From a virus, in the IMG/VR virus record IMGVR_UViG_3300023210_000013, positions 32,001 to 96,000 of that record: DNA of 64,000 nt; one strand, written 5' to 3'. The translations under genes and the position numbers were made by a program. How positions within the stretch are numbered: the stretch's first letter is position 1; each line of letters opens with the position of its first letter. Of the stretch, positions 1,179 through 59,415 are shown one piece after another. The notes under the pieces are model-generated. The model was not told where the DNA came from and did no database searches. It worked only from the letters and a program-made list of their open reading frames with translations.

Positions 1179-1182
1179 AATA

Positions 1183-4100
1183 TTACTTACCTTGAATAAT
1201 TGATGGTTTTATTCTTTTTTGTTCTTTCAAATTTTTTGCACTAAGATCAGCTAAAGACGCTCTATAGTTTGCTACTATTCTATCTACTTCATTAAGACCA
1301 GCAGGTTGCCCTTGCTCATTTCTAATTAGTTGAATAGGTTGCTGTCCCATTTTTTCAAATAGACCCGTTGTAGCATTAACACCTAACATCTCCATAGAAG
1401 AATAAAAAGCACCATCTTTATTGAATACTCTAAATGATCCTGCATTTTCTTTATACATGTCGTAAAGATAACTTTTATCTGGAGACATTTGAATTTTTTG
1501 ATTAACAGAAGAGAAATTATATTTGTCTAAGTTTAAATCTACTACAGCATCTGACTGTGGAAACATCATTGTTATTTCACTATACTTTTTAATTCCAGCA
1601 GCACTCTGAAGTCCAACTGGAGTTTTTGCTGCAGTTGATGCAAAGTCTTTTAAATACTGATCAGTATAAGTAACTTTCATTCCTGACATTATTGTACCAT
1701 CTTCTAAAGTTTTTACTACAGGTCTCATTTCAATACCCATAGAAAACTTTTTACTAGCAGCTGCTTTAGGATCTAATAAATATCCTCTAATATCTCTTAA
1801 ACTTTCACCTAGTATTTGATTAGCAGTTACATCATTTGTCCCATCTAATTCTTCATCTGATAATCCAGATGGAGTAATTATTTTTTCTCCTGGAGCATTA
1901 AATTGATCCACTAAGTTTTTAAGATCTGTATATACTTCTGGATTAACAGCTATAGAATTTATACTAAATGTACTTTTTGTACCACCATATGTATATAAAT
2001 TTGAAGCATTCATATCATCTAGTTGAACACCTCTAAAATAAGCATCAGCAGATAGTGGTTGAAATAATTTATTTTCAGGATCTAATCCTTGTGCATTATA
2101 TGATTCATTTAAAGTAGAATTTAAAACTTGTCTTTGTTGTGCATAATATTTTTTAGCATCTTCTCTAGCTTCATTTTCTACAAATATTGTATCACCCCAC
2201 ACATACTCATCAATTTTTTCATCCATATAATCTGCAATTCCAGGGAATATTGTAGCAGCCTGATATGTGTTATTACCTTTATCATCTCTTCTTCCTCTAC
2301 CTTCTATATAATCCGCATCTTTAATTGAACCTTTTTTGGCTTTTGCTATATAGCGTTCAATAAATTCTTCTTCTTCTAAGACTGTTCCATTATTAACAAT
2401 TTCAGGTACTCCAGCATCTGTAGCAGCTTTAGTGCTAAGACTAGATATTGTTTTAGAAGCATCCCAATTCTTTTGAATAGTTTCTTTACTTACTTTATCC
2501 CAATGTAATAATTGATCAGTTTCTCCTGCTATTCTATCACTAAGTTGAACTAAACTGTTATAACCAGGTGATGTTAAAACTCCAGGATTTGTTTTATTAA
2601 GTTCAGTTAATTCACCAAAACTTTTCTTGTAAAGATTTTCTAGTTCTGCAGCGTTCTCAGGTTTATTAAGTAATTTTGTAATTTGTTTTATATTACCTGT
2701 TTCTGTTTTACCGTTTATCTCAATACTAATAATACCTGTCTGCTGTGCAACAGGTAAATCAGATTGTTTCAATTCAAATAAAGACGTAATAAATTCTGGC
2801 TTCTTTGCATTTACAGAAGCTTCTTTTTTGCGTAAGTCTTCTGCATTTCTTGCTAATGGATCTTCTATCTCTTCTGTGCTTTCAGCAATTGTAGAACCTC
2901 CATCAGGTCCTGTCACTCCATCAAATATAGAAGCAGCAACAAAAGCAGGATTAATTATTTCACCTTTTTTATTTACGTTACCTTCTATTTTTCCTTTTAG
3001 TATAAGTTCATTTCTTCTATTAGAACTTGCATTGTTATCTCTAGCTAAATTATACTGATGTTGTATTTGCATTTTGGTATAAGGATTCTCCATTGATATA
3101 GTTTGAGAATAATCTCTTTTACTATATGATGTAGCCGCTCCTAAAATGTCACTGCTTAGATTATAATTCATAAGCATGTTGTAAGCAAAGTTTAGTGCAT
3201 CAGTATTTTCATCTGCTTCACCCATTCTTTGCAAGTCTCCTTCATTTCTTTTTAGTGCTTCATCTGAAGTTTCAAAAGCCTCAAAAGCTTCAAGCATTGC
3301 TTTATGCTCATCACTATCAGGTATAATACCTTCTTCCTTTTCATAACGTTCCCAATTTTGTTTAGCTTGTAAAGCTTTTTCAAATTGATTTCTAAGAATA
3401 GGATTTGCTTTTTCATTTCTAGCTCTTAAATCTTCTAAAGTACTTTGAGCCCAAGCGTTCTTTCCTTCTCCAATACTGCTGTATTGTCCATTTTTAAAAC
3501 CAATTTCTGCATGATTTCTTGCAGAAACAAAACCGCTTGTTCTATAAGCATCAATAACTTTAGGATCTTCCATTAAGGTTTTCATCAAAAAGTTATAAGC
3601 ACCAGGTACTTGAAGAGAACCATTCTTTTGTCTTATGATAAAAGGATCACCTTTCTTAACTGGTAAATCCATTTCAACATCTTCAAAACCAGCATCCTTT
3701 AGAATCTTCATTGACATAGTTTCTAAGTCTACATTCTCTACATAAGTAGGTAAACCTGCTTTTAAAGCATCATCTCTATTGTCATTTTTGAAATCTTCCA
3801 TTTGGTAATTCATTGCCTGAATACCTGTGGCCCAATATTTTTTTCTTTCTTCAGCACTAGCAGATGCTTTTAAAGAACCTGCTAATTGCATATTTCTTTT
3901 ATACTGAGAGGTAAAAACCAAATCTTTAACTATCAAGTCATCCTCATAAAAAGGTTTGAATAAGGATTGAGCAGAGTCAACATTTTGACGTATGGATAAA
4001 TCCATTCCTGATAGCTTCTCTATTCTAGGGATTAGTTGTTCAGTATATTGATTTCTTGCATCTATTGTGTCTTCTCTTGACATATCTGCATAAACAACTT

Positions 4101-4245
4101 TACTGTATTGATCACTCAACTGTTTATAGTTAGTGTCAAAACGGTCTTGTCTGGTGTCTAAAACAGCAGACATGAATTTATAATCCGGAGTAAACGGTGT
4201 TGTTTCTCTTTCATATCTTTGATATCCTGGTACGTATGTTGCCAT
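1183..4245 (-). CDS. Large putative cargo/internal virion protein (1020 aa)
   Basis: Long ORF with helical composition, located in the crAss-type cargo block after the muzzle gene. No catalytic motif recognised. Confidence 0.55.
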   Translation of the reverse strand: MATYVPGYQRYERETTPFTPDYKFMSAVLDTRQDRFDTNYKQLSDQYSKVVYADMSREDTIDARNQYTEQLIPRIEKLSGMDLSIRQNVDSAQSLFKPFYEDDLIVKDLVFTSQYKRNMQLAGSLKASASAEERKKYWATGIQAMNYQMEDFKNDNRDDALKAGLPTYVENVDLETMSMKILKDAGFEDVEMDLPVKKGDPFIIRQKNGSLQVPGAYNFLMKTLMEDPKVIDAYRTSGFVSARNHAEIGFKNGQYSSIGEGKNAWAQSTLEDLRARNEKANPILRNQFEKALQAKQNWERYEKEEGIIPDSDEHKAMLEAFEAFETSDEALKRNEGDLQRMGEADENTDALNFAYNMLMNYNLSSDILGAATSYSKRDYSQTISMENPYTKMQIQHQYNLARDNNASSNRRNELILKGKIEGNVNKKGEIINPAFVAASIFDGVTGPDGGSTIAESTEEIEDPLARNAEDLRKKEASVNAKKPEFITSLFELKQSDLPVAQQTGIISIEINGKTETGNIKQITKLLNKPENAAELENLYKKSFGELTELNKTNPGVLTSPGYNSLVQLSDRIAGETDQLLHWDKVSKETIQKNWDASKTISSLSTKAATDAGVPEIVNNGTVLEEEEFIERYIAKAKKGSIKDADYIEGRGRRDDKGNNTYQAATIFPGIADYMDEKIDEYVWGDTIFVENEAREDAKKYYAQQRQVLNSTLNESYNAQGLDPENKLFQPLSADAYFRGVQLDDMNASNLYTYGGTKSTFSINSIAVNPEVYTDLKNLVDQFNAPGEKIITPSGLSDEELDGTNDVTANQILGESLRDIRGYLLDPKAAASKKFSMGIEMRPVVKTLEDGTIMSGMKVTYTDQYLKDFASTAAKTPVGLQSAAGIKKYSEITMMFPQSDAVVDLNLDKYNFSSVNQKIQMSPDKSYLYDMYKENAGSFRVFNKDGAFYSSMEMLGVNATTGLFEKMGQQPIQLIRNEQGQPAGLNEVDRIVANYRASLADLSAKNLKEQKRIKPSIIQGK

Positions 4246-4304
4246 AATACTAAATTACTAAAATTTATTAAGTTTTAAAAACTTTATTTATACACTTTTT
4301 AGGT

Positions 4305-6878
4305 TTAATAACCTATCTTACCTAGATAAAATGGGAGAAACTTTTTAACTTCCTTACCTTTTTTTGCTGTTGGGTATCCACTACTAGGTGAATGTTGACT
4401 TCTCATTTGTCTTAATTGATCAGCATAAGGGTCCGCTCCGTAACCTTGTGGTGTTGAAGCTGTTGCATTTTTACCATATGTTTTTCCTAATATTGTATTT
4501 ATTGTAGTGCCATCTAAACCTTTAGCTTTTAAATCTAAAGCTCTTGATGTCATTTCATCATAAGGAGTTAACTTATTACCAGACTGTTTGTTAGCTGCTA
4601 AAGGCGGTGCTCCATTATTCCATTCTATTGCTCCAGCTTGTGTTGGATCAACATTATAATAAGGATACAATGTATTCATACTATATGTGTTAGCCATATT
4701 AGTATAAGCATTAGCTGTTAAATCAGCCATCTGCTCTCTATCTAGATTTTTCTCATCCATGAAATTCTGCTGAGTTAATTGAGTAGCATCATATTGAGAT
4801 ACACTTCTATCTCTTTGTTCTCTTTTTGCAGCTGCTCCTAACTGAGAATTCATTGCTAAACCTTGATTTACAGTATTGATATTTCTACCATGTGTTCCTG
4901 CAAATACGTTTGCGTTTTGTTTAAATGCATTAGCTCTACTTTGCGCTAATCTAGCATTCATACTTTGAGGTCCTGCAAATGCACCAATAGCTTGTGATGC
5001 AATATTTAACTGCTCATTAGTATCAGCCAATTGTCTTGTAGGTTCTTCAAGTACATAATCTACTTTAGGAATTTCAACTTGAGGTTGCCAAGGCAAAAAC
5101 ATTTCTCTATCTCTCATAGCAAGAGCACCCATTTTTAATAGGTCTTGAGTATAAAATGATTTGTCTGGATCTTCATACTTATATTCAGGATCACCTGGTT
5201 TAATTTCTATTTTAGGATCCGGTTCTTTTTCTACTGCTGGTTTAGCCGTTCTACCTAATGGTCTCCTTGAGGAAGTAAATGTTCCAAAATCACCATCATA
5301 ACCTTTTCCTTTTTTGTTTGGATCAAATCCATAATCTTTATTAAGACTGGCAGTTAAAGTACTTTCCATTTCAGGAGTCCATTCTTTACCTTCTTCTTCA
5401 AACGTTGCTTTAATTCTTTGTACTTCTTCTGGTATATATGTATCATTTATCCAATGTTGGAATTTTTCTACATCTGGATTTGTACCATCTGCTTTTTGAG
5501 AAGATATAGACGTTTTTAAACTTTCTATATCTGGATATTTATCTTTCCAAGCTTCAAAGAAACCTTCTTGATTTTCAGCAGCATCTCCATAAAGACCACT
5601 TCCTTTTGTATAGCCTTGTCTATCTTTAAAATTTGTTTCACCTACACCTATGCTATTAACATCAATACCTAATTTTTCATAGTATGCAATAACTTTAGGA
5701 TCCCATGCTACATTAGTCTTTCCTGATGACTTTTTCTTTTTAGGAGTAGTAACAGGATCCTTTTTAGTAACGGCTGTTTCTTCAGCAATAACTTCTTCTG
5801 CGGTAGTTGAATTAGATGAACTAGGTGTATATTGTTTTTCAACACTTAATAATGCATCAGCTAAACCATTTGGTCCACCTGCATTAAAAGCATCTTCTAA
5901 CTTTTTCTTTAAAGCATTTCTTGTTTCCTCATTTAAAACAGCAGGTGTTACTTTGTCAAGCATAGATTCAAAGTCCATTGGGCTTGTTCCAGCTCCTGAT
6001 AATGGTGGGAATGTAGGTACACCATACTGTGCTTGTGGTAACATTTCTGTACCATATTGAGCCATTGCCATTTCTTGAGGCATCTGCTGAGGCATCTGTT
6101 GTTGCATACCACCTTGACCACTTTGCTCCATCATGTCTCTTAGAGCCATTATCTGTGCTTGTTGTTCTGGAGGTAATGCACTTATTGCTTTTAATGTAGC
6201 CTGTTGTTTATTTATGTTTTCAACTTTTGCTGTAAACTCAACAGGATCTTGACCTTGAGAAACTAAATAAGGGTATGCCGCTAAAGGCACCCCATCTGAA
6301 AATTGTTTTTTAGCTTCTTGTCCAAATGCAAGTTTAGATAAACTTTTCATATTTTTATCTATCATTAAGTCTGCACTATTTGCTTTTATAGAATCTACAT
6401 CAGGGCTAGCCAATGCTCCTATAAATTCATTTAATTGATATTTTTTAGAAATTTTTGCAGGAGTCATTGCTTTTTTAGATTCAATACCAAACTCAGCCAA
6501 TTCATTTTTTTTGAATTTCATTTTTTGAGTATCTGAAAATATAAAAGACTGTTCAGGCAAAAACATTGGGACACCACCACTACTGTGTCTAGGCCCATTA
6601 ATATTATAAAGACCAAACTGACCATCATCATTTAAATCAGTAAGAACAGTTTCCCCTCCTTCTGCTTCTAAATTAGCCATATCTCTAGGTACAGAAGTTA
6701 ATGAATATTTCATATCACCTTCTGTAAAAGAATTAGATGACTCCATAGAAGAACCACCTGTAGCTAAACCATAATCAAATTGACTTCCAGTCATACCACC
6801 TTGTTGCATTTCTTTTACAACTTTACCATCTTTAATTTTAAAGCCTTTTGGTAGTTTGTTTATTTTAATCTTTGCCAT
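4305..6878 (-). CDS. Putative cargo protein (crAss cargo protein 1-like, 857 aa)
   Basis: LEAEGGETV and GPRHSSGGV motifs resemble crAss-like cargo proteins. Has a Q/M-rich linker and repeated AQYG/QQGG motifs. Confidence 0.6.
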   Translation of the reverse strand: MAKIKINKLPKGFKIKDGKVVKEMQQGGMTGSQFDYGLATGGSSMESSNSFTEGDMKYSLTSVPRDMANLEAEGGETVLTDLNDDGQFGLYNINGPRHSSGGVPMFLPEQSFIFSDTQKMKFKKNELAEFGIESKKAMTPAKISKKYQLNEFIGALASPDVDSIKANSADLMIDKNMKSLSKLAFGQEAKKQFSDGVPLAAYPYLVSQGQDPVEFTAKVENINKQQATLKAISALPPEQQAQIMALRDMMEQSGQGGMQQQMPQQMPQEMAMAQYGTEMLPQAQYGVPTFPPLSGAGTSPMDFESMLDKVTPAVLNEETRNALKKKLEDAFNAGGPNGLADALLSVEKQYTPSSSNSTTAEEVIAEETAVTKKDPVTTPKKKKSSGKTNVAWDPKVIAYYEKLGIDVNSIGVGETNFKDRQGYTKGSGLYGDAAENQEGFFEAWKDKYPDIESLKTSISSQKADGTNPDVEKFQHWINDTYIPEEVQRIKATFEEEGKEWTPEMESTLTASLNKDYGFDPNKKGKGYDGDFGTFTSSRRPLGRTAKPAVEKEPDPKIEIKPGDPEYKYEDPDKSFYTQDLLKMGALAMRDREMFLPWQPQVEIPKVDYVLEEPTRQLADTNEQLNIASQAIGAFAGPQSMNARLAQSRANAFKQNANVFAGTHGRNINTVNQGLAMNSQLGAAAKREQRDRSVSQYDATQLTQQNFMDEKNLDREQMADLTANAYTNMANTYSMNTLYPYYNVDPTQAGAIEWNNGAPPLAANKQSGNKLTPYDEMTSRALDLKAKGLDGTTINTILGKTYGKNATASTPQGYGADPYADQLRQMRSQHSPSSGYPTAKKGKEVKKFLPFYLGKIGY

Positions 6879-6880
6879 AA

Positions 6881-8968
6881 TTATAACATTTCTATATCAG
6901 CACCTGCTGCTATTAATGCAGCTAGTGTATCATTATCAACTTCTATTTCTCCACCTGTTTGCATTTCATCTTGATGTATGAAACCCATCTTAGACATTCT
7001 TTCATGGTCACCAGGTTTATTTGCTTTATAACCTTTTCCTGTTTTAGGATCAAACATCATGTGTGGTTCAAACCCACCGCCAGCTTTATATATTTCTCTC
7101 CCATACTTTGAATAATAATCAACTAGATTATTTTGTTCTTGTAAGCCACTGTTTACATCAAAGTTTCCTTGAGCATTAGGTACGTCTGTTACAGCATAAA
7201 CTTTATCTGCGTTTGTTTGACCTCTTAGATCATCTAGTTGATCAGTAGGATCTGTAAATGCAGTTAATAAATTAGCACCCATTACAAGACCTTTGCTTAT
7301 ATCACCTACAGCATTCATAACAGGACTATCTTTAATAAACGTTTCTGCTTGATCTATTGCATTACCTACAGATCTTTTTCTTTTAACAGTAGGTTGTGCG
7401 CTTGTATTATCTGCAGCTGGTTCATCTGCAGCTGTTAATGGAGTATTAACCTGTAGTGGGTTAGCAACACTTTGTTGTAACTGAGAATCTTTTACTGCTT
7501 GAGTATCTCTATTATAATCTGTTTTTAAGGCACTTTGTAAAAAGTCACCCATGCTATTAGGTATCTGAAAATTTTGTTGCTCTTGCTGTAAAGGAGTTGG
7601 TCCCATTGGGCCTACTGGAACATCTTGTTTGTTACCATACATCCAATCAGGTATGTTAAATTGAGCTTTAGGTAATGGTGTACCACCATATCTAAACTCA
7701 GCATTGTCATACATAAGCATTAAGTCATTTTGACTTTTACCTTGAAGCATAGGACTTGTTGAATTTTTAACGTACCATTCTTTAAAGCTTGGTTGATCTG
7801 CAACAGGAGATTTACTAGAATTTGGCACCGCCATCATACTTGGCTGATTTGCAGCAGCTGTAGTTAATGGAGCATCTGTTGAGCCTTTATATACATATGG
7901 AGAAAAACCAGGAGCTTTTTGAGCACCTCGTTGTCCTGTTACCATATCTCTATATCTACCTCTGTGTTTAGCTTTTTCTTCTTCTGTTAGATTTTCTAAA
8001 GATTTTGATATTGGATTACCGTTATCATCATAACTAAGAACTACGTCTTTACCGTATACACCACTTTCATTTTTTAAAGCATTAGCAACCATAAATGCAT
8101 TATCCTCACCATATTCTTTTATACCAGAAGTAATGTCTGCAATTGTCTGACCGTGTTGTAATCTTTGATTTTTAGGTATAGCATCAAGTTCTAATTGACT
8201 AAAAGCCATGTTGCCTGTAAACTTATTAAGTTCTGGATTAAAATCAAACTCTGAATACTTAAATAAATCTGCTGCTTTTTCTTGACGTGTTTTTACTACA
8301 CCATCATTTAAATCTTCTAAAGTTACAGCATAATTTGCTTTATCATTATCACCAAAATCTACTTCATAAGATTTATTACCAAGTTGTTTTTGTTTATATC
8401 TAGCTTGTTTACCATCCCAATCACTAAAAGTATTTTCCATTTCACCAACAAAATCATTTAGCATATATGCTGCATTAATTAAGCTGTTCTTTTTTGGATA
8501 CGGTGTTGAGTATATAGGTCTATAACCTTGATTAGGTTGTCTATCTATAGGCCCTCTAGCAGTAGTTTCAAAACCAACATTTGCTTGAGGTACTTCAACA
8601 TTGTCAAGTTGTTCTAGAAGTTCTGCTTGTGGATCAGCAGACTGACCTTCAGCTACATTACCTGGCATTTGTCCAGGCTGTTCCGCTTGCATAGACTGTT
8701 CTTGTGCTGCTTTTATTTGTTCAGCACCTAACAGTAAATCTGCAAATTTAGATGGATCATAACCTGCTTCTTCAAAGACAATGTTTAATTGATCTGGCTC
8801 TATACCTTCTTGCAAGTAAGATGCAAGAATTTGTGCAGGCTCTTCACCAGCTTCAATACGTTGTTGTACTTCTGCTGAAAGTTCTTGCAAAGGAACGTCA
8901 TTAACTGTTTTATTTACAGCTCCACCTTCCTGGTATAAACTTATTTTATTTAGTTCTTTTTCCATCAT
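6881..8968 (-). CDS. Putative cargo/internal virion protein (695 aa)
   Basis: Low-complexity and Q-rich, with repeated QEGG/RYGG/KAGG/QTGG motifs. Lies in the cargo block. Confidence 0.55.
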   Translation of the reverse strand: MMEKELNKISLYQEGGAVNKTVNDVPLQELSAEVQQRIEAGEEPAQILASYLQEGIEPDQLNIVFEEAGYDPSKFADLLLGAEQIKAAQEQSMQAEQPGQMPGNVAEGQSADPQAELLEQLDNVEVPQANVGFETTARGPIDRQPNQGYRPIYSTPYPKKNSLINAAYMLNDFVGEMENTFSDWDGKQARYKQKQLGNKSYEVDFGDNDKANYAVTLEDLNDGVVKTRQEKAADLFKYSEFDFNPELNKFTGNMAFSQLELDAIPKNQRLQHGQTIADITSGIKEYGEDNAFMVANALKNESGVYGKDVVLSYDDNGNPISKSLENLTEEEKAKHRGRYRDMVTGQRGAQKAPGFSPYVYKGSTDAPLTTAAANQPSMMAVPNSSKSPVADQPSFKEWYVKNSTSPMLQGKSQNDLMLMYDNAEFRYGGTPLPKAQFNIPDWMYGNKQDVPVGPMGPTPLQQEQQNFQIPNSMGDFLQSALKTDYNRDTQAVKDSQLQQSVANPLQVNTPLTAADEPAADNTSAQPTVKRKRSVGNAIDQAETFIKDSPVMNAVGDISKGLVMGANLLTAFTDPTDQLDDLRGQTNADKVYAVTDVPNAQGNFDVNSGLQEQNNLVDYYSKYGREIYKAGGGFEPHMMFDPKTGKGYKANKPGDHERMSKMGFIHQDEMQTGGEIEVDNDTLAALIAAGADIEML

Positions 8969-8992
8969 ATCATACTATTAATATACAAATAA

Positions 8993-11900
8993 TTAAGCGG
9001 TTTCCCTAATAATATTGCTCATTATATAGTTGGGAGAAGTTGTCCCACCTAGCCTTGCTTTCCTAAGATAAACTCTATTAAGTTTATCATATACTTTTTG
9101 AGCTTGTTTTTGCATGTTTGTATTATCATACATGCCTTTCATATAATTCTTATACATTGTTAATTCATTCACTTTACTTTTAGGCTCTCCTCCATGTGCC
9201 ATAGTTGATGGCTCAAAGTCATTAGCGGGTGTTTCCACATAAGCATAATTTTCAGGAAATAAATCTGTTCTGTATTTATTTACTTTTTTAATATAGGAAT
9301 CAGACGGTCTTACAGATCCAGGCATTCCTGTTGGTAGCACTTGACCCACTTTAAAAGCAGCATCACCTATAATAGGTAAATGTTTATAATTAGTTGAATT
9401 AATATCTAATAGTGTAGCATCATATAATTCTCTTAAAGCTTGAACTTCAGTTTCAGCATTTCTTGAATCAGCAACTCTACCTGTTTTTAAAAGTCTATTT
9501 GTTCCTTGATTATAAGCTAGAATTGACATGTTTCTAATATCTTCTTCTGCTAAATTTAATTCAGGGTAAGTGTTTGAATAATCTTTAAACGTTTCATAAT
9601 TTTTTGTAATCAAATAAGTTATTGCGTCAATTGCTTTATCATCTGACTTTCCTAAATCATCAGCACTATTAATTTGAAAATAACTCTTTGCAAAATTATC
9701 TAATGCCGTAAGTTTAGTTTTACCTATTCCTAATGAAACGTCTTTAGGTTTATAACCTTTGTAATCATAGACCATATTTTTAACATACCCCGCATCTTCC
9801 TTACTTCTTGGAACAGATGCACCTACCCCGGTTTCTGCACCAGTTATACCAACTATTGTTGACTCTAACCATTTAGGGTCTACAGAAGAATTTAATATTT
9901 CTGGTATTTTAGTTGAATTATATTTAGCTCTTTTAAATACATTTTCAAGTTGTGTAAGTCTTTCTCCTTCGTAATCACCTGATTGATATCTTAAAGATAA
10001 ATTTCTTATTGTAGATGGATCAATTTCAATATCTTCAATACCATCAACATTATAAGTTGAATTAACTTTAATATCTTCTTTAGGTCTTCTTATCCATCCA
10101 GTAACTAATTCATCATATGGTTGTTGTAAAACTGTACCATTTACATTATGTGTAATAATTGGAACACCATCAATAACATCTGATACAAATCCAGTATGTG
10201 TATTGTGTGTTTTTGAGTTTAATGTTTCTTCATGATGACTTGAACCATCCCAATATAATCCAACAATATCACCTGTTTTGTAATCACTTGCTTTTGTTTG
10301 TTTTTTTCTTTTTACTTCTTTTGTTATTCTTTTTATATCTTCTGCGGACGTAGCATTATCAAATGCTTTGTCATCATATATATTAAAAACAGATTTACTA
10401 TTTTCAACATCATTCATGTTTTCAAATATGTCCCATGCATTTTTATACTTAATACCTAAAGACTCTGTCATAACATTATTACCTTCCAATATACTACACA
10501 TTCCGGCAGCACATCTTCCATCTTTTAGTTTACTAGGTATAAAGTCAAACACTAAAGCATTTGGATCTTCTTCAGTTTTTTTTGTGTTATAAGCTTGTAA
10601 AGCTTCTTTTGTTTGTTGACCAAACTTACCATCTATACTTGAACCTTCTTTATTAAGTAGTGTAGCAGACATAAATCCTTTATCAACAAGGTCTTGTTGA
10701 ATCCTTAATACTTCTTCTTTATTATCAGGATTGTAATTTTTATAATATTTTGATATTGCTGATGGTGCTAAATTTACATCATCTATCATAGATTTGTGAG
10801 CGGCAAATGTTTTTGCTCCATAATCTCCATCTGCTCCAGTTGCTCCTATATCATATCCTTTACTTAATAAATCTTTTTGTAAAGTTTCAACTTCAGAAGG
10901 AGAAGCATTTGTCATATCTTTCCAACCTCTTGCATAATCATTTGAGCTCTTAGTAAAATCAGAAACTAAATTAGGTCTTTTATATTTTGATTTTTCTAAT
11001 CTACTTTCTTTGTCCAAATCAGCTATTACGCTGTTATACTCTTCTGGGCTAAGTGGCTCATTAAGATTTCCATCTTTTATAAAAGGTAATTGCTTCTGAG
11101 TTATAGCAGTATTATCTCTTACTACTGTTGTGTCTAACATTTGATTGTTTACATAATCAGCACCTGCTTGTTTTAAAAATTCTTGTAATTTTGAAGCTGG
11201 CTCAAATTCTGGTTTACCAAGATTTGGTATCACACGTCTAGTGGCAACTCTTGTATTATCTTGAACTGCGGTTCTCCATTCTCCATTACCATATTGAAAT
11301 GATTTATAGCCATTCTTAATACCTTCTTTTTCTGCTGCTTTTTTACTTTCTAAAAAACTAGCACGGTCACCTTCAGCTTCTACATTTTTATGACCCTGTA
11401 ACCAAAGATCTACAGGAGATAAATTACCATTTGTAAAATCAGATAACTTAGCTTTTGACTCTATTAAATTTGCAAAAAACAATGCGTATTGATCTTCTGA
11501 TGACAACTGATCAGCTGATGTAGCATTTACAATACTATCTTTTATAGTATATCCTTTTGCATCTGCAACATTTTTATATCTTTTTAATGCTGTATTAAAT
11601 GATTCACCTTCAAATTGAAATAACCCTCTACCAGGCCCACCTTGATACTGTTTAGCTTTTGGATCCATTCTTGACCACGGACTTGATTCATGAAATGCAA
11701 TTGTATCTGCTAATTGTCCCCATGTATCTTTTGTTCCACCTCTGGTTTCTACTATATAGTTTGATATATTATTATAATCTAATATTTTAGAATTATCAAC
11801 TTTGTCTTCTCCATTACCATCTTGTGCTTTTGGTATACCTCCATACTTTAATTTGCTTTTTAAAACTTGTTTGCTCATGTCCCAACCAGATTCTATTTCA

Positions 11901-13321: not shown

Positions 13322-16300
13322 TATCTAATGGACATATTTAATTTAGTGTTTGCTATTTTAAGAAGCATCTTTCTATCTCCAGATACATTACGTCTTAATA
13401 GTAATTTATTATAATAGTGTCTGAACTTTTTATGTTGCAATGGATCTTTAGCATAATTTAAATTAGCGGCATTAAGATCTTTTATGTAACCATTCATTTG
13501 AGTAATAAACTTACTTCTTTGAATACCTGTAAACTCACCTCTATCATCAGTAATATCCCAGAACTGATTAAATCTATACTTCTGTTCTTCTTTAGAATAT
13601 AGAATTCTAATATCATTAGTTCCTATAATAGGATATTGTAGTGCTGCAAACGGATCTTCTTTTGGTGTTAAGTCTAATTTTAATAATCCAGATACTTGTT
13701 CTGAATTATATATAATACTTTCATCAAAGTTAAAATCTAAATCATGCCATCTATCATCTCCACAAGCAAGTAGTAAATCTCCTTTATATACATAAGATTC
13801 CAATTGGTATTCAACACTTCTAATAGTGTTAACAATTTGACCTGTGTTTTCTATTACTTCTACTTCCCATGGGTAATCTACACCATAGTAATTAGAAAAT
13901 AAATCACACCTAACATTATGCCTCCATAAAGATCCTGATTCAAAACTAGGTTGAGTTGAAAATGATCCAAAATAATTACAAGTTAATGGATTAAAATTAA
14001 TATAACTTGGACTACCTGTTCCTAATACATTAGTTAAATATACATCATCACATACTCCAGTTTCAGTAGTACTAGCTTCTGGAAATGCTGGACCTGGACA
14101 ATTACATTCTACTTTTCTACAAATAGGAGGGTTTGCAACAGTACAATCTCCTTCAGATAAAGTATAATTATTATTAGAATCAGGATACACAACCTCATAA
14201 CCTTCGGGACATTCACATGTAGGAGGTGCACCACATATAGCACCAGCAATTGCAGTTGATATAACAGCTGATGTATTATTAGGTTGAGATCCATCTGCAA
14301 TCATTACAAAATCTTGCGTTGGATCATTACAAGTAATTTGATTTATAATAGCTACTGCATTTGCATTTGGGAAATTTGATGTATTACACCAAACACTAGT
14401 AACATTATACTGAGGTAGATTTTGATATTGACAACCGTTAGGAGTACCAGCTGTCCATGCAGCATCAGTCATAAAAATCATTACTCTTGTAAAACCAGGT
14501 TGTCCTAATCTATTTCCTAACTGAGAAGATGCTGTATTATTTAAAATACTATCTGCATGTGCCATACCTACTGGAATGTCAGTACCTGACGTAGGGTTTG
14601 GAGCATACCATGCATTTACAGCAGCTATATTTAAACCGGTACTTTGCATTGAAAATCCACCAGGATTAAATGATTGTGTGAAATTTGCATTTCCCCATTT
14701 TGTAAATCCTATTTGAAATGTACCATTAGCTAAACCTGCAGTTACTTCAGGACTACCTAAAAACTGAGCTACAAATTGTCTTTGTGCTGCTATGGGTGCA
14801 CCAAGTGTACTTGTAGACCAATCCATTGCTATTACAATATCTAGTGTACAATTTACTGTATTATCTACTACTGTTGCCGGTACTTCTTCTACTACTACTG
14901 TTGCTGGTTCTACTTCACTATAAATTTTTTCACACAAGTTTGTTGCAGGATTAAAAGTATATCCCGGAGGACATGTGGGTGATTCATTAGCAACTGTCTG
15001 TGTAGTTAAAAAATGATTAATACTAGGTAGTGCAAGTTCAGGATGCCAATCATGAAATGAAATCCATGCTTGTGATTTAGCATCATAAGAAACTGTCCAA
15101 GAAGCATCTTCAAAATAAAGCGGGTCACCTACTTTTATTGGTGTACCAGGACTTGCCGGTAATGTCTTATACACAAATCCATCATTAACAAAATGTACTT
15201 CTCCTCCACCTGAACCAGGTATTAAATTTTCTTTTACTTTATAATCTTTTTTCATAAAGTAAACTATATCATCATTGACATCATATATACTTTGACATCC
15301 AATTCCAATAACAGGGTTATCAGATAACTTACTAAATTCAAGTTCTGGATACTGTTTTACAAGAATAGATGGGAGGTATTTATTAAACCACCATTTCATC
15401 CCTTTATTAGAAATATTGTCAAGCTTTCCTGTGTAATGAAATATCTTACCTTGAGCTTGTGACATGTAGTATATTCCTGTAGGTGTATTTACTACAGATC
15501 TCATGCTTTCAGATGAACCATATTCATTGGATAAATCAGAGTTTGCAATATTCTGTAAAGGTTGACTAAATAGTCCACCGTCACCTATTGTAAGTTTTGT
15601 CCCTAAGTCTGTTTGCAGTTGATCTACACCCTGGAACATTACAGGAGATTGATAAGGAAATAATATAATTGCACCACTCTTACTTATAGGCTTTATTACA
15701 TTTACTTCACTTTTAAAATCTTTATAATTGTTTGGTAAAAACACTCTCCAAAAATCTTTCTTTGCTTCTTTTTGTGCTTGTAAAGAATATATAAGTCTTT
15801 TAGGATAATACTGATAGCAATTTTCTGCAACGTAAGGATCATAATCTCTAGGTTGTACATTACCAAAAGATGTAACTTGAGTTATCATTTTACTAATACT
15901 TAATGATAAATCATACTTATAAAAGTTATCTTCTTTTTGAATATCAGCATGAAATAAATCATCTGTATTTGTATAATCATAAACATCATAATGACGTTTT
16001 GCAGGAGTATCATCCCAATCTCTTTGTGAAAGATTATATTCTGATTCTACAAAAAAGTCTTGCACTCCATTAACGTGAGTATACATATAAGCATACCTCA
16101 TAGCAAAAGAAGGATTTGGATCATTAGGTAATCCTAATAAACCTTCTATAGTAGAAGGACAAGAATTACTACCTCTATCTAAATAAAATAAATCATTTGG
16201 TAATGGATCACTAGAAGAACCTAAACCTAAAGTTGCAACTTCTAAACCTAATGATGTAGTATCATATTTTCTTGTGTCCATCCAAAATCTTGGATAAGGA

Positions 16301-25703: not shown

Positions 25704-26894
25704 CTATCTAGGTACCATTTTTTGCATGTAAATAGTCAAACCATTTTCTAATTCAAATGCCATAGTACCAAACTTCTCATCAAAATAAGCATTTTTAACT
25801 CCTTCCATACTACCACCATCTGCACCTGCAGGACCTGCCGGTCCCGGTGCTCCTGCAGTACCTGTATTACCTTTTGGACCTGTTGATCCAGCGGGCCCTC
25901 TAGCTCCTGCTGCCCCGGTATTACCTTTAGCTCCAGCCGCACCAGCTGCTCCAGTAAGCCCTCTTGCACCGGCTGCTCCTGCAGCACCAGTATTACCTTT
26001 AGCTCCAGCTGCTCCAGCCGCACCAGCTGCTCCTGTTAGTCCTCTAGGTCCTTGTAAATTTGTAGCTTCTCCTACCCATATACCTTTACTATCAATTACT
26101 GTTGTACCTGCTATAGCTAGAAAACCTACATCAGCTACATTTTTTAATTTTAATCTACCGTTTGTAGTTAATGACATTGCTCCATCATTATTTCCTTGAC
26201 CTTCATATTTCCAAACCCATCCTCGGTCTGCATCATTATTCATTTGAAATACTGTAGCATAATCATTTAAATAACCATAAGATTGACCAGATACCATACC
26301 AAGACCATAAGTAGTTGAATTACCCCAGAATCTATATTTACTTGAATTATCACCTGAATTAGTATAGTGACTTGCTCCACCATTTGGTCCGGCTGGACCT
26401 ACTGCACCAGCATCACCTTTGGCTCCAGCTGCTCCGGCTGCACCTGCAGAACCGGCAGGCCCTCTAGCACCAGCTGCCCCAGCTGTCCCGGCTGCTCCTG
26501 TAAGTCCTCTTGCTCCTGCTGAACCCGCGTCTCCTTTTGCACCTGCGGCTCCAGCGTCTCCCTTAGCACCTGCTGGTCCTCTTGCACCAGCTGATCCGTT
26601 AGTACCGTCTGTTCCTGCAGGTCCTCTATCACCTTTAGCACCCGCTGCTCCATCTGCCCCATTTGAACCATCTGTTCCTGCGGGACCTCTTGCTCCATCA
26701 GCTCCGTCACTACCATTAGTTCCATTAGTCCCGTCAGCACCTCTTGCACCACCGTCACCCTTTGGACCTGTTAATCCTACACCCCCGGTATTTCCTTTTG
26801 GGCCTACAAATTGAGGAAAATTAGTAGTATTAAAGTTTCCTGTGTGTAATGCTTCATTACCACCAATTGTTGTTCCTTGTTTTAAATCTGCCAT
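25704..26894 (-). CDS. Collagen-like fibre protein
   Basis: Two long Gly-X-Y blocks flank a globular beta segment. Confidence 0.75.
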   Translation of the reverse strand: MADLKQGTTIGGNEALHTGNFNTTNFPQFVGPKGNTGGVGLTGPKGDGGARGADGTNGTNGSDGADGARGPAGTDGSNGADGAAGAKGDRGPAGTDGTNGSAGARGPAGAKGDAGAAGAKGDAGSAGARGLTGAAGTAGAAGARGPAGSAGAAGAAGAKGDAGAVGPAGPNGGASHYTNSGDNSSKYRFWGNSTTYGLGMVSGQSYGYLNDYATVFQMNNDADRGWVWKYEGQGNNDGAMSLTTNGRLKLKNVADVGFLAIAGTTVIDSKGIWVGEATNLQGPRGLTGAAGAAGAAGAKGNTGAAGAAGARGLTGAAGAAGAKGNTGAAGARGPAGSTGPKGNTGTAGAPGPAGPAGADGGSMEGVKNAYFDEKFGTMAFELENGLTIYMQKMVPR

Positions 26895-55558: not shown

Positions 55559-55759
55559 TTTTTAATGTCAAAATTAAATTTTTTTTAAACAAAATACAAA
55601 TATAAGATCCCCCCTTCTATTACAAGCAAATGTTGCCCCCGGTCCTCAGAAAGTTTTATGTATGGCATTGGTGAGAGGTGGTACTATTCAACTCCCCAGC
55701 AAAATTTTGCGGTTATGGTACCCCCGCTTCTGCGGTACCAACACTTAAATTATATCATT

Positions 55760-56050
55760 ATGTACTTTTACAAATTTACAAACTCAAACAAAGGAATCGT
55801 TACAACTGAGCAACCTCTAACTGGTAGTGCTACCAAGAAGATCACCAAGGTTATTGGTGGTGTGGAAATGGAAGTCCTACAACAACGTGATCAAATAGAA
55901 GGTCTCAAGTTTGGATTTACTGCTATAAGCCCAGACGTTGTGGCTCAAATGGACCTGAAGGTTGGTGATGAGTTGCCACTGGAACTGACAGACAAAGCTG
56001 TCAAAAACAGAGAGGGTGAAGAAATCCCAAATCTGTACTGGGCTCACTAA
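55760..56050 (+). CDS. Early hypothetical protein, paralogue A (96 aa)
   Basis: The start at 55760 (MYFYKF) was chosen by alignment to paralogue B. Confidence 0.75.
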   Translation: MYFYKFTNSNKGIVTTEQPLTGSATKKITKVIGGVEMEVLQQRDQIEGLKFGFTAISPDVVAQMDLKVGDELPLELTDKAVKNREGEEIPNLYWAH

Positions 56051-56232: not shown

Positions 56233-56277
56233 GATCCCTCTCCCCCCCATTGATCCCTCTCCCCAGCTAAATGTTGC
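56233..56277. repeat. C-rich direct repeat (GATCCCTCTCCCC x2) plus a 19-nt box shared with 55692-55710
   Basis: Read directly from the sequence. Confidence 0.8.
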
Positions 56278-56309
56278 AATCAATTAATCATTTAAACTTG
56301 CATAAAATT

Positions 56310-56585
56310 ATGACGTATTTTTACAAACTTACGCAGACTGGTAAAGGAATAGTAACCACTACTGCACCGTTGAACAAAACAACGGAAATCAAAAATATTG
56401 GTGGAGTTGAAACTGAAGTAAGAGTTCAGAATCAAGATGTATCATTTGGCTTTACTGCTATATCAGCAGACACTGCCGCGCAGATGAACCTAGCAATAGG
56501 TGATGAACTGCCACTTGAAATCACAGATAAGCCTGTGAAAAACAAGGATGGTGAGGTAATACCCAACATGTTTTGGGCTCACTAG
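56310..56585 (+). CDS. Early hypothetical protein, paralogue B (91 aa)
   Basis: Shares YFYK, KGIVTT, IGGVE, FGFTAIS, GDELPLE.TDK.VKN and IPN..WAH with paralogue A. Confidence 0.75.
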   Translation: MTYFYKLTQTGKGIVTTTAPLNKTTEIKNIGGVETEVRVQNQDVSFGFTAISADTAAQMNLAIGDELPLEITDKPVKNKDGEVIPNMFWAH

Positions 56586-56600
56586 CACATGATGCTAACA

Positions 56601-56639
56601 TAACACGGAGATCTAATAAATCTCTGTGTTATTTTATTT
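56601..56639 (+). terminator. Terminator-like hairpin after paralogue B
   Basis: TAACACGGAGAT/ATCTCTGTGTTA stem followed by a T-rich tail. Confidence 0.6.
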
Positions 56640-56946
56640 AAAACACACGTTGCACACTAAAGGTGACATCATATAACCCATATAAGCACACTTTAAGCAA
56701 TGATATTAATTATCTTATCCATATATATAGATATAGCTATAAAGATCACTTAGGCAGAGCAAACTATTACATAGTAGTTGTTATCTCTCTCTATAGTATC
56801 TTATGTATCTCTTCTTATATGAATAGTATTATATTACCCGGAATATTACAACAGGCACATAGATATATACCTGTATAAACATGGTTGGTCTAATCCAGTG
56901 AGCTGCTGGCGTAAGAGAGAACTTACAGTAATCTAAACTCAACTAA

Positions 56947-57190
56947 TAGAATAAGTGTAGCAAGACAAAATAAAGGCTAAGACGTTAGTCATCCTACTGT
57001 CACTAGATGACAGCTTGTAAATGCCATGTCAGCAGGGATGCTACACTTATATCTATAACTCTTAATGGTTAACGTCAGATACATGTATCAAATAGTTAAT
57101 CAGTTATATACTTTTGTGAATTAACAGTATACCTGGAACCCATCGTGGTGTAAAGGCAGACAGGTTGGGATACCCTACAAAAGTATATTA
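56947..57190 (+). ncRNA. Two candidate structured RNA elements
   Basis: Perfect 12-bp closing stems at 56951-56962/57039-57050 and 57106-57117/57177-57188, each with internal hairpins. No ORF. Confidence 0.5.
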
Positions 57191-57235
57191 TATAATAACA
57201 TCACCTAAAGCTGAAGAGCATTGTACTATCCTATT

Positions 57236-57451
57236 ATGTCAAAAGAAATAACAAGTACAATATTTATAAAAGATGCAGAGATAGATAAGTTTGTATTATC
57301 TATTGGAGGTAGTATAAGAACCACACCATTTAAAACATATAAACCACCTGTTGGGTTATCATTTGATTTTAATTGGGTAAGAGATGGTGTTGAAATAGAC
57401 CTATTCAAAATAATTAATCATTTAAAACTAAATCGTAATGGTAAAGACTAA
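57236..57451 (+). CDS. Hypothetical protein
   Basis: ORF with a likely ATG at 57236; overlaps the next start. Confidence 0.4.
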   Translation: MSKEITSTIFIKDAEIDKFVLSIGGSIRTTPFKTYKPPVGLSFDFNWVRDGVEIDLFKIINHLKLNRNGKD

Positions 57452-57638
57452 AACTATGCTATTAAGCATAACCGTATTCATAATCACAGTAGTAATATTT
57501 AACACACTCGTATGGTATCTACAAGATACTTGGACATTCAAAGAATGCTTTGGCCATGGTGCAACAATAGGCTTCTCAGTTATATTTGCTTGGATACCTG
57601 CTGGTATCGTAGGAAATGATTACTACAATCGTATTTAA
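57438..57638 (+). CDS. Small two-TM membrane protein
   Basis: Two hydrophobic segments; AATCATTTAA leader motif. Confidence 0.6.
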   Translation: MVKTKTMLLSITVFIITVVIFNTLVWYLQDTWTFKECFGHGATIGFSVIFAWIPAGIVGNDYYNRI

Positions 57639-57640
57639 AG

Positions 57641-58349
57641 AGAACACCCGTGAGGCTAGCGGGCGTGTTAGAGTGTCACGTAGATACACTTAAGAGGATA
57701 GCTTGTCAGCTTGGCTCTGCATATGTTAGGACTATAGGTCTGTTGTAGGTTTGACAACCCTGAACCATATGTTGATTTGCTAGTTTAACATAAACTAGAA
57801 TCGTCAACCGGGGAAACGGTCAAGTAGAGGTAACCAAGCTCTACATTTTTTTAACAATATTATAAATAACTAGTCAATAAAAGCAGTAGTGGCTACCTGC
57901 AGATAAACAATGTTAAGTTGAAGGTGGAATAGTTAGACTATTCATAAGCCCATGTGTATGTAAACTGCATACAATAGACTCATCATCGTGGCCTTGACTA
58001 GTTTTCTATTAAAGTCTAAAAGCAAAGATAACCTCACTTGTAAAACAAGGGTAGATACCATAACAATTGGTTGAGTGAGTAAAGAATCAGGGAAATAAGG
58101 TTATGCGTTAAAACCTGAATGATTGCTATAGACTAAAAATACGTGTTTAGGTAATTCTAAACTAGTGTGACACACATGAAGTGAAGTAGGTTAATTACCT
58201 ATAGTGTCTAATCAACCAATGAGTATGTTGGTAGGTGTTGGTCTCACCTGATAATCAAATGACTTATTCCTAACTATGTAAAGCAATAATGTAATTCTCA
58301 TAGGACAACCGTGCCAGTTGAAGTTGGATAAAATAGACTGGCTTTTTTT
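57641..58349 (+). ncRNA. Cluster of candidate structured RNAs ending in terminators
   Basis: About 700 nt with no ORF of 60 aa or more and many hairpins. Closing stems at 57868-57877/57994-58003 and 58013-58025/58123-58134. Terminator-like ends at 57824-57852 and 58313-58349. Confidence 0.55.
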
Positions 58350-58374
58350 ACAAACCACTTAACAAAATCATATC

Positions 58375-58563
58375 ATGGATAAATTTACTAGAATTAGCGT
58401 ACACATTGCTGCTTATTTTGTAGCATTCAATCTATTTAGAGTTGCACACCACTCATCAGGAGAAGGTAACTGGCAAATCTCTATTATGTTCTTCGTATTA
58501 GGCGTATTCACAATGTATATACCGTCAATGCTAACAGCAAAAGAAAAAAAAAATAATCACTAA
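58375..58563 (+). CDS. Small two-TM membrane protein
   Basis: Two hydrophobic segments, basic tail, AACCACTTAA leader. Confidence 0.6.
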   Translation: MDKFTRISVHIAAYFVAFNLFRVAHHSSGEGNWQISIMFFVLGVFTMYIPSMLTAKEKKNNH

Positions 58564-58744: not shown

Positions 58745-58790
58745 ATAGACTATCCCTTTTACATTTATCAACCACTTAATCTTATCAATC

Positions 58791-59075: not shown

Positions 59076-59101
59076 CCAATTAATATCTTAATATACACTT
59101 T

Positions 59102-59227
59102 ATGAAAAATTTAAAAATCAAATTTGGCTACGCTGAATTCATTGGGCTTGGAATAGCTTGGCAGTATGATAGAGCAGCTATCATAATACCTTTTCTTATG
59201 ATTGAAATCATATGGAAAAAGAGATAA
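59102..59227 (+). CDS. 41-aa hydrophobic microprotein
   Basis: Hand-translated as MKNLKIKFGYAEFIGLGIAWQYDRAAIIIPFLMIEIIWKKR. Confidence 0.45.
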   Translation: MKNLKIKFGYAEFIGLGIAWQYDRAAIIIPFLMIEIIWKKR

Positions 59228-59415
59228 TAACTATCAGACTTAAAAACAAACACGCACTATAGATCGTACTAACAATACCAGTACTTCTATATCTTATATA
59301 ATGATCTTACTACTGTGGGATCATAAATGTTAAACATGGTGATGTATGTTTAAGTGGTGAATGGATCTTACCTGGGAATTCCTGGGTAAGGTTGCATTCT
59401 TTTATAAAAGAAATT

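What the first reader, a model, noticed from the sequence alone, without database searches (positions are those of the whole stretch)
56947..58349. Array of distinct stem-closed structured RNAs in the early region
Seen: at least five adjacent non-coding units. Four are closed by a long stem in the same way: 56951-57050 (12 bp), 57106-57188 (12 bp), 57868-58003 (10 bp) and 58013-58134 (6+5 bp). The fifth, 57643-57852, is a hairpin chain. The interiors differ but are rich in hairpins, and G-U pairs favour the plus strand. CATCGTGG recurs at 57141 and 57984. I recognise no tRNA, CRISPR or known ribozyme. Inference: a polycistronic ncRNA cassette processed at the closing stems (RNase III-like), which could supply decoy, antitoxin or anti-defence RNAs early in infection. 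This is the top candidate for an undescribed system.
Basis: partly seen in the sequence, partly recalled or inferred. Interest (0 to 1): 0.8.

Follow-up and report, generated by a model that had tools for sequence, protein, structure and literature searches.

The report
Shuffled structured-RNA modules in marine crAss-like phage
The two largest non-coding stretches of this marine crAss-like phage genome hold a string of distinct, conserved, folded plus-strand RNA modules that match no catalogued RNA family, are swapped between related phages like cassettes, and have no known function.

Summary
The closing stems are at the stated coordinates and exceed chance: two perfect stems of 12 bp or more were seen against 0.027 expected (0/1000 shuffles).

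The window comes from a 115.6-kb marine crAss-like phage. That phage has a giant ORF carrying the DFDID motif of the phi14:2 virion RNA polymerase, and no tRNA genes. The finding covers its two largest non-coding gaps. ARAGORN and Rfam find nothing there.

Homologues from viral and ocean metagenome contigs show that the stretch is built from separate modules: E0, U1, U2, U5, U3, U4 and U6.
- U5 and U6 have strong compensatory covariation.
- E0 and U1 have some.
- U3 is fully compatible with its fold, and every one-sided change gives G-U on the plus strand.
- U2 and U4 have too few homologues to test.

Module order and presence differ between phages. Homology breaks at the closing stems. Several modules are 93-100% identical in genomes whose backbone is about 70-80% identical.

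I read this as an array of independent plus-strand structured RNAs, co-transcribed with small early ORFs and ended by intrinsic terminators. The array is analogous to, but not homologous with, the abundant early non-coding RNAs of Cellulophaga phage phi14:2.

RNase III processing and a decoy or anti-defence role remain untested. The scan had not noted this on other DNA.

The parts
56600..56632 (+). Intrinsic terminator ending the upstream paralogous small genes (55658-56050, 56271-56585). It marks the start of the first non-coding gap.
   Evidence: Terminator scan, 13-bp stem plus T-run.
56829..56846 (+). P element ATATTACCCGGAATATT, a small inverted repeat. It is conserved upstream of E0, or directly upstream of small ORFs, in relatives. 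It is a candidate promoter-associated element and is single-copy in the genome.
   Evidence: Alignments; L081 and L099 sequence; single copy. The promoter role is inferred, not tested.
56851..56945 (+). Module E0: three hairpins plus invariant single-stranded segments. It is 93-95% identical in phages whose helicase is about 72% identical at protein level.
   Evidence: Alignment A9 has 16 pairs, 3 with changes on both sides (CAGG/CCTG to GAGG/CCTC to GTGG/CCAC; CCAG/CTGG to CCAA/TTGG).
56946..57056 (+).
   Evidence: Fold z -3.35. Five homologues; 4 pairs with changes on both sides, including C-G to U.G to U-A series. In L078 the interior is deleted but the stem is kept.
57106..57188 (+). Its structure and strand are untested.
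   Evidence: The only homologue is L069, 82/82 identical, while the flanks are 81-89% identical.
57236..57638 (+). Two overlapping small ORFs inside the array. orfA (57236-57451, 71 aa) is variable cargo. orfB (57438-57638, 66 aa, hydrophobic) is conserved and usually sits 5-7 nt upstream of U5.
   Evidence: No Pfam or PHROG match.
57643..57852 (+). It ends in an intrinsic terminator (stem 57824-57844, T-run 57846-57852).
   Evidence: 14 distinct homologues; 47 pairs, 98.2% paired; 15 pairs changed on both sides against 4.5+-1.3 in shuffles (0/500) and 0-4 when slid. Covariance model R1 finds it only in this subclade.
57865..58006 (+).
   Evidence: Six homologues at 90-97% identity with unrelated flanks. 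All 38 pairs are kept. One pair has CG:4 UA:2 UG:1, and every one-sided change gives G-U on the plus strand. Covariation is not statistically significant (72/500).
58013..58134 (+). It travels with U3 in L099 and L081.
   Evidence: Fold z -2.77. L099 differs at 3 positions, one of them U-A to U.G in a stem. There are too few sequences to test the structure.
58135..58349 (+). Module U6: several hairpins and conserved single-stranded boxes. It ends in an intrinsic terminator (stem 58313-58342, T-run 58343-58349).
   Evidence: 4 distinct homologues; 44 pairs, 97.7% paired; 12 pairs changed on both sides against 6.0+-1.4 (0/500) and 0-2 when slid.

Best explanation
The stretch 56829-58349 is an array of independent plus-strand structured RNA modules (E0, U1, U2, U5, U3, U4, U6), interleaved with two small ORFs. 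It lies at the start of the rightward, presumably early, block of a marine crAss-like phage.

Proposed mechanism:
1. The array is transcribed rightward in one or two units that end at the intrinsic terminators built into U5 and U6.
2. Each module folds on its own. In U1-U4 a long terminal helix pairs the module's 5' and 3' ends.
3. That helix insulates the fold from its neighbours. It may also provide a double-stranded site for host endonucleases, or protect the ends, so that discrete stable RNAs of about 85-215 nt accumulate.
4. These RNAs then act in trans on a host or phage factor.

The modules are exchanged between related phages as cassettes by recombination at or near the terminal helices.

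Shown: the modules exist, are conserved, keep their base pairs on the plus strand, are modular, match no known RNA family, and occur only in phage and metagenome DNA.

Inferred: transcription timing, processing into discrete species, and action in trans. The molecular target is unknown.
For: Genome context.
- crAss-like capsid and muzzle proteins.
- A giant 4761-aa ORF with the DFDID motif, the catalytic motif of the phi14:2 virion RNAP (10.1101/2020.03.07.982082).
- The two gaps are the largest non-coding stretches in an otherwise densely coding 115.6-kb genome.

Structure.
- U5: 15 of 47 pairs have compensatory changes, 0/500 shuffles reach this.
- U6: 12 of 44 pairs, 0/500.
- E0: 3 of 16 pairs.
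- U1: 4 of 43 pairs, with G-U intermediates.
- U3: 38 of 38 pairs kept, and every one-sided change gives G-U.

Strand.
- 126 G-U cells against 5 A-C cells in consensus helices.
- Plus-strand terminators.
- All neighbouring genes are on the plus strand.

Modularity. Module order differs between phages:
- window: E0-U1-U2-orfs-U5-U3-U4-U6
- L101: orfB-U3-U5
- L099: ORF-U3-U4-ORF-U5-U6
- L064: E0-[151 nt]-U5-U6, with no ORF
- L023: U5 before E0
- L072: U6..U1..U5
U3 homology starts and stops at its closing stem in seven different contexts.

Hyper-conservation.
- U3-U4 are 96% identical in L081, against 69-82% for its backbone.
- U2 is 100% identical in L069.
- E0 is 93-95% identical.

No known family. 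Rfam and ARAGORN find nothing.

Precedent. In phi14:2, two long intergenic regions at the start of the early block are transcribed rightward, early and persistently, at higher levels than most genes. Their function is unknown (10.1101/2020.03.07.982082).
Against: - No transcript data for this phage could be obtained, so expression, timing, RNA ends and processing are all unverified.
- U2 and U4 have only one informative homologue each, and U3 covariation is not significant.
- Consensus structures were predicted on the plus strand, which biases the G-U count.
- U5 follows orfB by 5-7 nt in most phages. That also fits a 3'-UTR or terminator element rather than a free-standing gene.
- Stem-closed units are not clearly enriched in relatives overall: 23 perfect >=10-bp stems in 63 kb, against about 12 expected by my estimate, with redundancy among loci.
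- There is no sequence homology to the phi14:2 intergenic regions.
Confidence: 0.55

Rival explanations
1. The modules are cis-acting parts of early mRNAs. They would be 3'-UTR or intercistronic structures that terminate transcription, block exonucleases, serve as endonuclease processing sites (as in the T7 early operon) or tune expression of the adjacent small ORFs. They would have no function of their own as free RNAs.
For: - U5 and U6 carry intrinsic terminators.
- U5 lies 5-7 nt after orfB in at least eight arrangements.
- U3 starts on the stop codon of an ORF in L081 and L099, and lies between two ORFs in L099.
- The closing stems extend as imperfect 23-28-bp duplexes (I3 and I7), which resemble RNase III sites.
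Against: - The modules change partners and order. U3 follows a terminator, three different ORFs, or precedes U5. L064 has an array of about 700 nt with no ORF inside it. L077 has U5 before orfB.
- Near-invariant loops and single-stranded boxes, and 93-100% identity in diverged genomes, are more constraint than a stabilising hairpin needs.
- The proposed terminator/antiterminator switch in U5 has no covariation support.
Confidence: 0.27
2. The elements act at the DNA level. They could be a replication origin, promoter or packaging region at the strand switch, or MITE-like mobile inverted-repeat elements. The inverted repeats would then be protein-binding or recombination sites rather than RNA helices.
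For: - The array lies at the GC-skew minimum and strand switch.
- U1-U3 have terminal inverted repeats and show presence/absence polymorphism with sharp boundaries.
- AT-rich, iteron-like sequence lies just upstream of P in relatives.
Against: - Compensatory changes occur in internal helices. Asymmetry is strong: G-U 126 against A-C 5. This points to single-stranded plus-strand RNA.
- Every module is single-copy in the genome.
- There are no target-site duplications at U3.
- There is no transposase or reverse transcriptase.
- GC skew follows gene orientation here, so it does not locate an origin.
Confidence: 0.1
3. The stems are chance or relict sequence: AT-rich junk between genes with fortuitous palindromes.
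For: Folding z-scores for U2, U3 and U5 are unremarkable (-1.2 to -1.7). CATCGTGG is a chance repeat.
Against: - Conservation of the modules is far above the genome background.
- Covariation is significant.
- Two perfect 12-bp long-range stems were never reached in 1000 shuffles.
Confidence: 0.02

Closest known systems
Abundant early long non-coding RNAs of Cellulophaga phage phi14:2 (Drobysheva et al., bioRxiv 10.1101/2020.03.07.982082)
   Same: Both are long non-coding stretches among small ORFs at the start of the rightward early block of a marine crAss-like phage that carries a virion-RNAP-type giant protein. Function is unknown in both.
   Different: There is no sequence or covariance-model similarity. 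The phi14:2 regions contain a tmRNA-like gene and tRNA-like T-arms, which are absent here. Expression is measured in phi14:2 and only inferred here.
Phage tRNA gene arrays and the T4 stable RNAs of unknown function in the T4 tRNA cluster (from my own knowledge)
   Same: Both are tandem arrays of distinct small structured RNAs whose 5' and 3' ends pair. They are co-transcribed and shuffled between related phages.
   Different: There is no cloverleaf, no T-loop and no CCA context. The closing helices are 10-17 bp, and module sizes are 83-215 nt. Relatives keep their true tRNAs elsewhere, just upstream of the helicase.
RNase III processing hairpins between T7 early genes (from my own knowledge)
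   Same: Both are structured elements between small early genes in a polycistronic transcript. Both have long, partly imperfect duplexes.
   Different: The interiors here are multi-helix domains with conserved loops, not simple bulged hairpins. Several units lie side by side without genes between them. Cleavage is untested.
3'-UTR-derived, terminator-sharing bacterial sRNAs (from my own knowledge)
   Same: U5 and U6 end in the intrinsic terminator of the transcription unit, and U5 usually follows an ORF.
   Different: U5 is a nine-helix RNA of about 200 nt, much more elaborate than typical seed-plus-terminator sRNAs. No target or chaperone is known.

Membership tests
tRNA / tmRNA / tRNA-like | Cloverleaf or tRNA-like domain with a T-arm (GGTTCRANTCC-type loop), detectable by ARAGORN or the Rfam tRNA and tmRNA models | tested here: not met
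   ARAGORN finds 0 genes in the window and in the whole genome. There are no Rfam hits. No T-loop motif occurs in 56586-58374.
Known Rfam families (self-cleaving ribozymes, riboswitches, 6S, Y RNA, GOLLD/ROOL and others) | Covariance-model score at or near the family's gathering threshold | tested here: not met
   There are 0 gathering hits in the 64-kb window. At E<=10 only four noise hits appear (11.9-19.3 bits against thresholds of 35-56), one of them (16.3 bits) overlapping the minus strand of the U5 terminator and none plausibly matching a module. Homologous loci give only true tRNAs elsewhere.
CRISPR array or anti-CRISPR RNA (repeat mimic) | Direct repeats of 25-40 nt at regular spacing | tested here: not met
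   The repeat search finds only short two-copy families at irregular spacing.
MITE-like mobile element | Terminal inverted repeats | tested here: met
   U1, U2 and U3 have perfect terminal inverted repeats of 10-12 bp.
MITE-like mobile element | Multiple copies per genome and target-site duplications | tested here: not met
   Each module is single-copy in the 115.6-kb genome. No duplication flanks U3 in seven contexts.
Retron msr/msd non-coding RNA | A stem-closed ncRNA next to a reverse transcriptase gene | tested here: not met
   Closing stems are present, but RVT_1 has no match anywhere in the genome.
Type III toxin-antitoxin antitoxin RNA (ToxI-like) | Tandem identical repeats upstream of an endoribonuclease toxin gene | tested here: not met
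   The units are all different in sequence and there are no tandem repeats.
RNase III processing sites | Cleavage of the duplex by RNase III, leaving staggered ends | not testable with these tools
   Duplexes of 10-17 bp, extendable imperfectly to 23-28 bp, are present. The phage has no RNase III gene. No RNA-end data are available.
phi14:2-type early lncRNAs | Position among small ORFs at the start of the rightward early block of a crAss-like phage | tested here: met
   Gene order, compared with the phi14:2 map and the paper.
phi14:2-type early lncRNAs | Early, abundant, persistent rightward transcription | not testable with these tools
phi14:2-type early lncRNAs | Sequence or structure homology | tested here: not met
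   nhmmer and covariance model R1 find nothing in phi14:2 1-9000.
Intrinsic (rho-independent) terminator, for the 3' ends of U5 and U6 | A G+C-containing hairpin followed directly by a T-run on the transcribed strand, conserved in homologues | tested here: met
   57824-57844 plus T7, and 58313-58342 plus T7. Both are kept in all homologues.

The most novel reading that the evidence does not exclude
Marine crAss-like phages carry an exchangeable 'library' of hyper-conserved, trans-acting structured RNAs. These RNAs would be expressed at the very start of infection and would each bind or mimic a different host component, for example as decoys for defence nucleases or as regulators of host RNA polymerase or the ribosome. 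They would be traded between phages as stem-delimited cassettes, much as protein anti-defence genes are. This would be a new class of RNA-based host-takeover or counter-defence elements.
Probability: 0.2. Interest if true: 0.85.

Novelty: new variant of a known kind. Interest (0 to 1): 0.62.

Why it matters
crAss-like phages are among the most abundant viruses known. The only transcriptome of a marine member (phi14:2) showed that its most abundant early products include unexplained non-coding RNAs.

This finding supplies at least five comparative-genomics-supported RNA motifs (E0, U1, U3, U5, U6) and two candidates (U2, U4) from an uncultured marine lineage.
- None of them is in Rfam.
- They are more conserved than the phage's proteins.
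- They are shuffled as cassettes.

That pattern argues for specific, selectable RNA functions at the onset of infection. It also gives concrete sequences for structure probing, ribozyme or ligand screens, pull-downs, and mapping of ocean metatranscriptomes. If the modules prove to be cis-acting mRNA elements, they would still document an unusual, modular way of building early operons.

Tried and rejected
- GenBank phages: blastn of 56600-58400 found no match.
- First viral-contig scan for the U5 core: I used the wrong spacing and it found nothing. The corrected pattern worked.
- Stem-anchored scans: none found for U4. For U2 only L069 and one unrelated hit, L083. For U1 no new homologues. For U3 one true viral hit (L081) and one random hit (L082). 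The metagenome scan gave 5 true U3 homologues among 19 hits.
- Prokaryote genomes: the E0 core and U5 core patterns gave 0 hits. There is therefore no evidence for a host-encoded counterpart or a prophage copy.
- tRNA-like reading: rejected.
- Riboswitch-like switch in U5, where a junction helix competes with the terminator: the helix is 72% paired with no covariation (82/500), and it excludes a helix that does covary. Not supported.
- Long-range pseudoknot CTGCTGGCGT/ATGTCAGCAG between E0 and U1: it is present in this sequence, but U1 homologues carry mismatching changes, and E0 and U1 occur without each other. Not supported.
- ATAACC/GGTTAT helix proposed for U4: broken by the one informative substitution in L099. 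This is weak evidence against it.
- General enrichment of stem-closed units in relatives: not convincing.
- ESM Atlas search of the upstream early protein: nothing usable. Pfam and PHROGs found nothing on the small ORFs.
- Too few protein homologues of the upstream paralogues were found to justify a structure prediction.

Full report
What the window is.

The window is bases 32001-96000 of a 115,581-bp IMG/VR virus record. Pfam identifies a crassvirus major capsid protein and a muzzle protein. The whole genome has a 4761-aa ORF carrying DFDID, the catalytic motif of the virion RNA polymerase of the crAss-like phage phi14:2 (bioRxiv 10.1101/2020.03.07.982082).

The closest cultured capsid is only 28% identical, in Leptolyngbya phage Lbo-JY46. 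Relatives found through the helicase and through RNA motifs come from marine and other environmental metagenomes, including a Tara Oceans scaffold.

Late structural and lysis genes run on the minus strand up to 55514. From 55658 everything runs on the plus strand: two paralogous small genes, then the stretch in question, then small ORFs and replication genes. The genome is densely coding. Only six gaps of 300 nt or more exist, and the two largest are 56586-57235 and 57639-58374, which make up this finding.

Checking the observation.

Two perfect long-range stems of 12 bp were never reached in 1000 dinucleotide shuffles. Three stems of >=10 bp were seen against 0.37 expected.

Folding energies alone are not persuasive and do not pick a strand. 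ARAGORN finds no tRNA or tmRNA. Rfam finds nothing at gathering thresholds and only noise at E<=10.

The region is not purely non-coding, because two small ORFs lie at 57236-57638. CATCGTGG recurs as stated, but at chance level, and it is not conserved in homologues.

Comparative evidence.

I gathered about 100 related loci using four anchors: the helicase, an invariant U5 core pattern, closing-stem patterns and an E0 core pattern. Against these, the stretch resolves into seven modules.

- U5 (57643-57852). It has 14 distinct homologues at about 70% identity. Its consensus has nine helices and 47 pairs, 98.2% of them paired. Fifteen pairs change on both sides, against 4.5+-1.3 in shuffles (0/500) and 0-4 in slid controls. 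It contains a long-range junction helix with up to four pair types per position, and it ends in an intrinsic terminator.
- U6 (58135-58349). With 4 distinct homologues it has 44 pairs, 12 of them changed on both sides (0/500), plus a conserved terminator.
- E0 (56851-56945). It has three hairpins with compensatory changes. It also has long invariant single-stranded boxes.
- U1 (56946-57056). Its closing helix extends to about 16 bp. The module shows C-G to U.G to U-A series in two helices.
- U3 (57865-58006). It has six homologues at 90-97% identity. All 38 pairs are kept. One pair covaries (CG/UA, with a UG intermediate). Every one-sided change yields G-U on the plus strand. There is too little variation for significance.
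- U2. It has one homologue, which is identical.
- U4. It has one full homologue with three differences. The folds of U2 and U4 are untested.

Over all consensus helices, 126 cells are G-U and 5 are A-C. Together with the plus-strand terminators and the gene orientation, this points to plus-strand RNA. The caveat is that the structures were predicted on that strand.

Modularity.

Module order and content differ from phage to phage.
- This phage has P-E0-U1-U2-orfA-orfB-U5-U3-U4-U6.
- L101 has E0-U1...orfB-U3-U5.
- L099 has ORF-U3-U4-ORF-U5-U6.
- L064 has E0, then two other stem-closed units, then U5-U6, with no ORF for about 700 nt.
- L023 has U5 before E0.
- L072 has U6...U1...U5.

U3 homology begins and ends at its closing stem in seven unrelated contexts. 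U1 in L078 keeps the stem but has lost the interior.

Several modules are far more conserved than their genomes.
- U3-U4 are 96% identical in L081, whose structural genes are 69-82% identical.
- U2 is 82/82 identical in L069, where the flanks are 81-89% identical.
- E0 is 93-95% identical where U5 is about 70%.

Each module is single-copy in the genome. The E0 and U5 cores are absent from 185,579 prokaryote genomes. The region has no match in GenBank phages. The U5 covariance model finds it only in this subclade, and not in phi14:2.

Interpretation.

The best-supported reading is an array of independently folding plus-strand structured RNAs. They would be co-transcribed with small early ORFs and ended by the U5 and U6 terminators. 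In U1-U4 a terminal helix insulates each fold.

Three features favour self-contained RNA genes acting in trans: the way modules change partners, the existence of ORF-free arrays, and the near-invariance of loops. I put this reading at 0.55.

The main rival, at 0.27, is that they are cis-acting 3'-UTR or intercistronic elements. U5 nearly always follows orfB, and U3 can start on an ORF's stop codon.

A DNA-level or MITE-like role is unlikely, at 0.10. The strand asymmetry, the internal covariation, the single copy number, and the lack of target duplications and of a reverse transcriptase or transposase all count against it.

RNase III processing is plausible from the length of the duplexes, but it is untested. 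The phage has no RNase III gene of its own. A decoy or anti-defence function is speculation at this stage.

Comparison with what is known.

The closest precedent is phi14:2. There, two long intergenic regions at the start of the early block are transcribed rightward, early and persistently, above the level of most genes, and their function is unknown. Position and context match, but there is no homology.

While checking this I found that the phi14:2 intergenic regions contain an unannotated tmRNA-like gene and tRNA-like T-arms. These features are absent here. The two phages therefore fill the equivalent position with different RNAs.

Other analogies are phage tRNA arrays, T7 RNase III sites and 3'-UTR-derived sRNAs. 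Each shares single features only. The membership table lists the tests.

Verdict.

The families appear undescribed. The processing mechanism and the biological role remain open.

I rate this a new variant of a known kind (phage-encoded early non-coding RNAs), with an interest score of 0.62.

Noticed in passing
L080 (Cellulophaga phage phi14:2, KC821624) 4031-4500 and about 1759-1850: One long 'intergenic' region of phi14:2 encodes a tmRNA-like RNA that is not annotated in the record. ARAGORN reports tag peptide GSSVQKLAMVA*, and Rfam tmRNA scores 46 bits against a threshold of 47 (E 2.4e-16). Another region holds a tRNA-like T-arm followed by ACCA. These may be part of the abundant early 'lncRNAs' reported for this phage.
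   Followed up: partly
window 1-1178 (minus strand), continuing to genome 18893-33178: A giant 4761-aa ORF carries a DFDID motif at residue 3771, the catalytic motif of the phi14:2 virion RNA polymerase. Only its N-terminal 392 aa lie in the window.
   Followed up: partly
window 55658-56050 and 56271-56585: These are tandem paralogous small genes at the very start of the plus-strand block. They share MYFYK..KGIVTT..IGGVE..FGFTAIS..GDELPL. The true start of the first is probably the internal ATG (residue 35). They have no family match and few homologues.
   Followed up: partly
window 56633-56828; L064 660-830; L081 about 13690-13880: An AT-rich stretch upstream of the P element carries repeated TTACCAC/TACCCAC-like words and a conserved ...CTCTATAGGATAAGAG... 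box in relatives. These could be binding sites for a regulator or initiator protein.
   Followed up: no
window 58347-58362 and 58764-58779: The motif TTTAyMAACCACTTAA recurs about 15-25 nt upstream of small-ORF start codons, straight after terminators. Similar CACCTTA words follow the U5 terminator in relatives. It is a candidate promoter or translation-initiation signal. No Shine-Dalgarno sequences were seen.
   Followed up: no
window 59364-59393: A 13-bp stem hairpin (terminator-scan hit, core palindrome CTTACCTGGGAATTCCTGGGTAAG) lies in the fourth-largest non-coding gap (59076-59415).
   Followed up: no
whole genome versus L009, L010, L016, L019, L020, L026-L029, L031: This phage has no tRNA gene at all. 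Many relatives carry tRNA-Arg(TCT), tRNA-Leu(TAA) and tRNA-Met(CAT) directly upstream of the helicase.
   Followed up: partly
L069 2590-2680; L064 967-1110: Relatives carry further stem-closed units at the same locus that are unrelated in sequence. Examples are TAATTAGGGA...TCCTTAATTA in L069, and ACCATAAC...GTTATGGT and ATAACTAATA...TATTAGTTAT in L064.
   Followed up: partly
window 25704-26894: A collagen-triple-helix-repeat protein lies in a local G+C peak (0.45, against about 0.33 for the genome).
   Followed up: no
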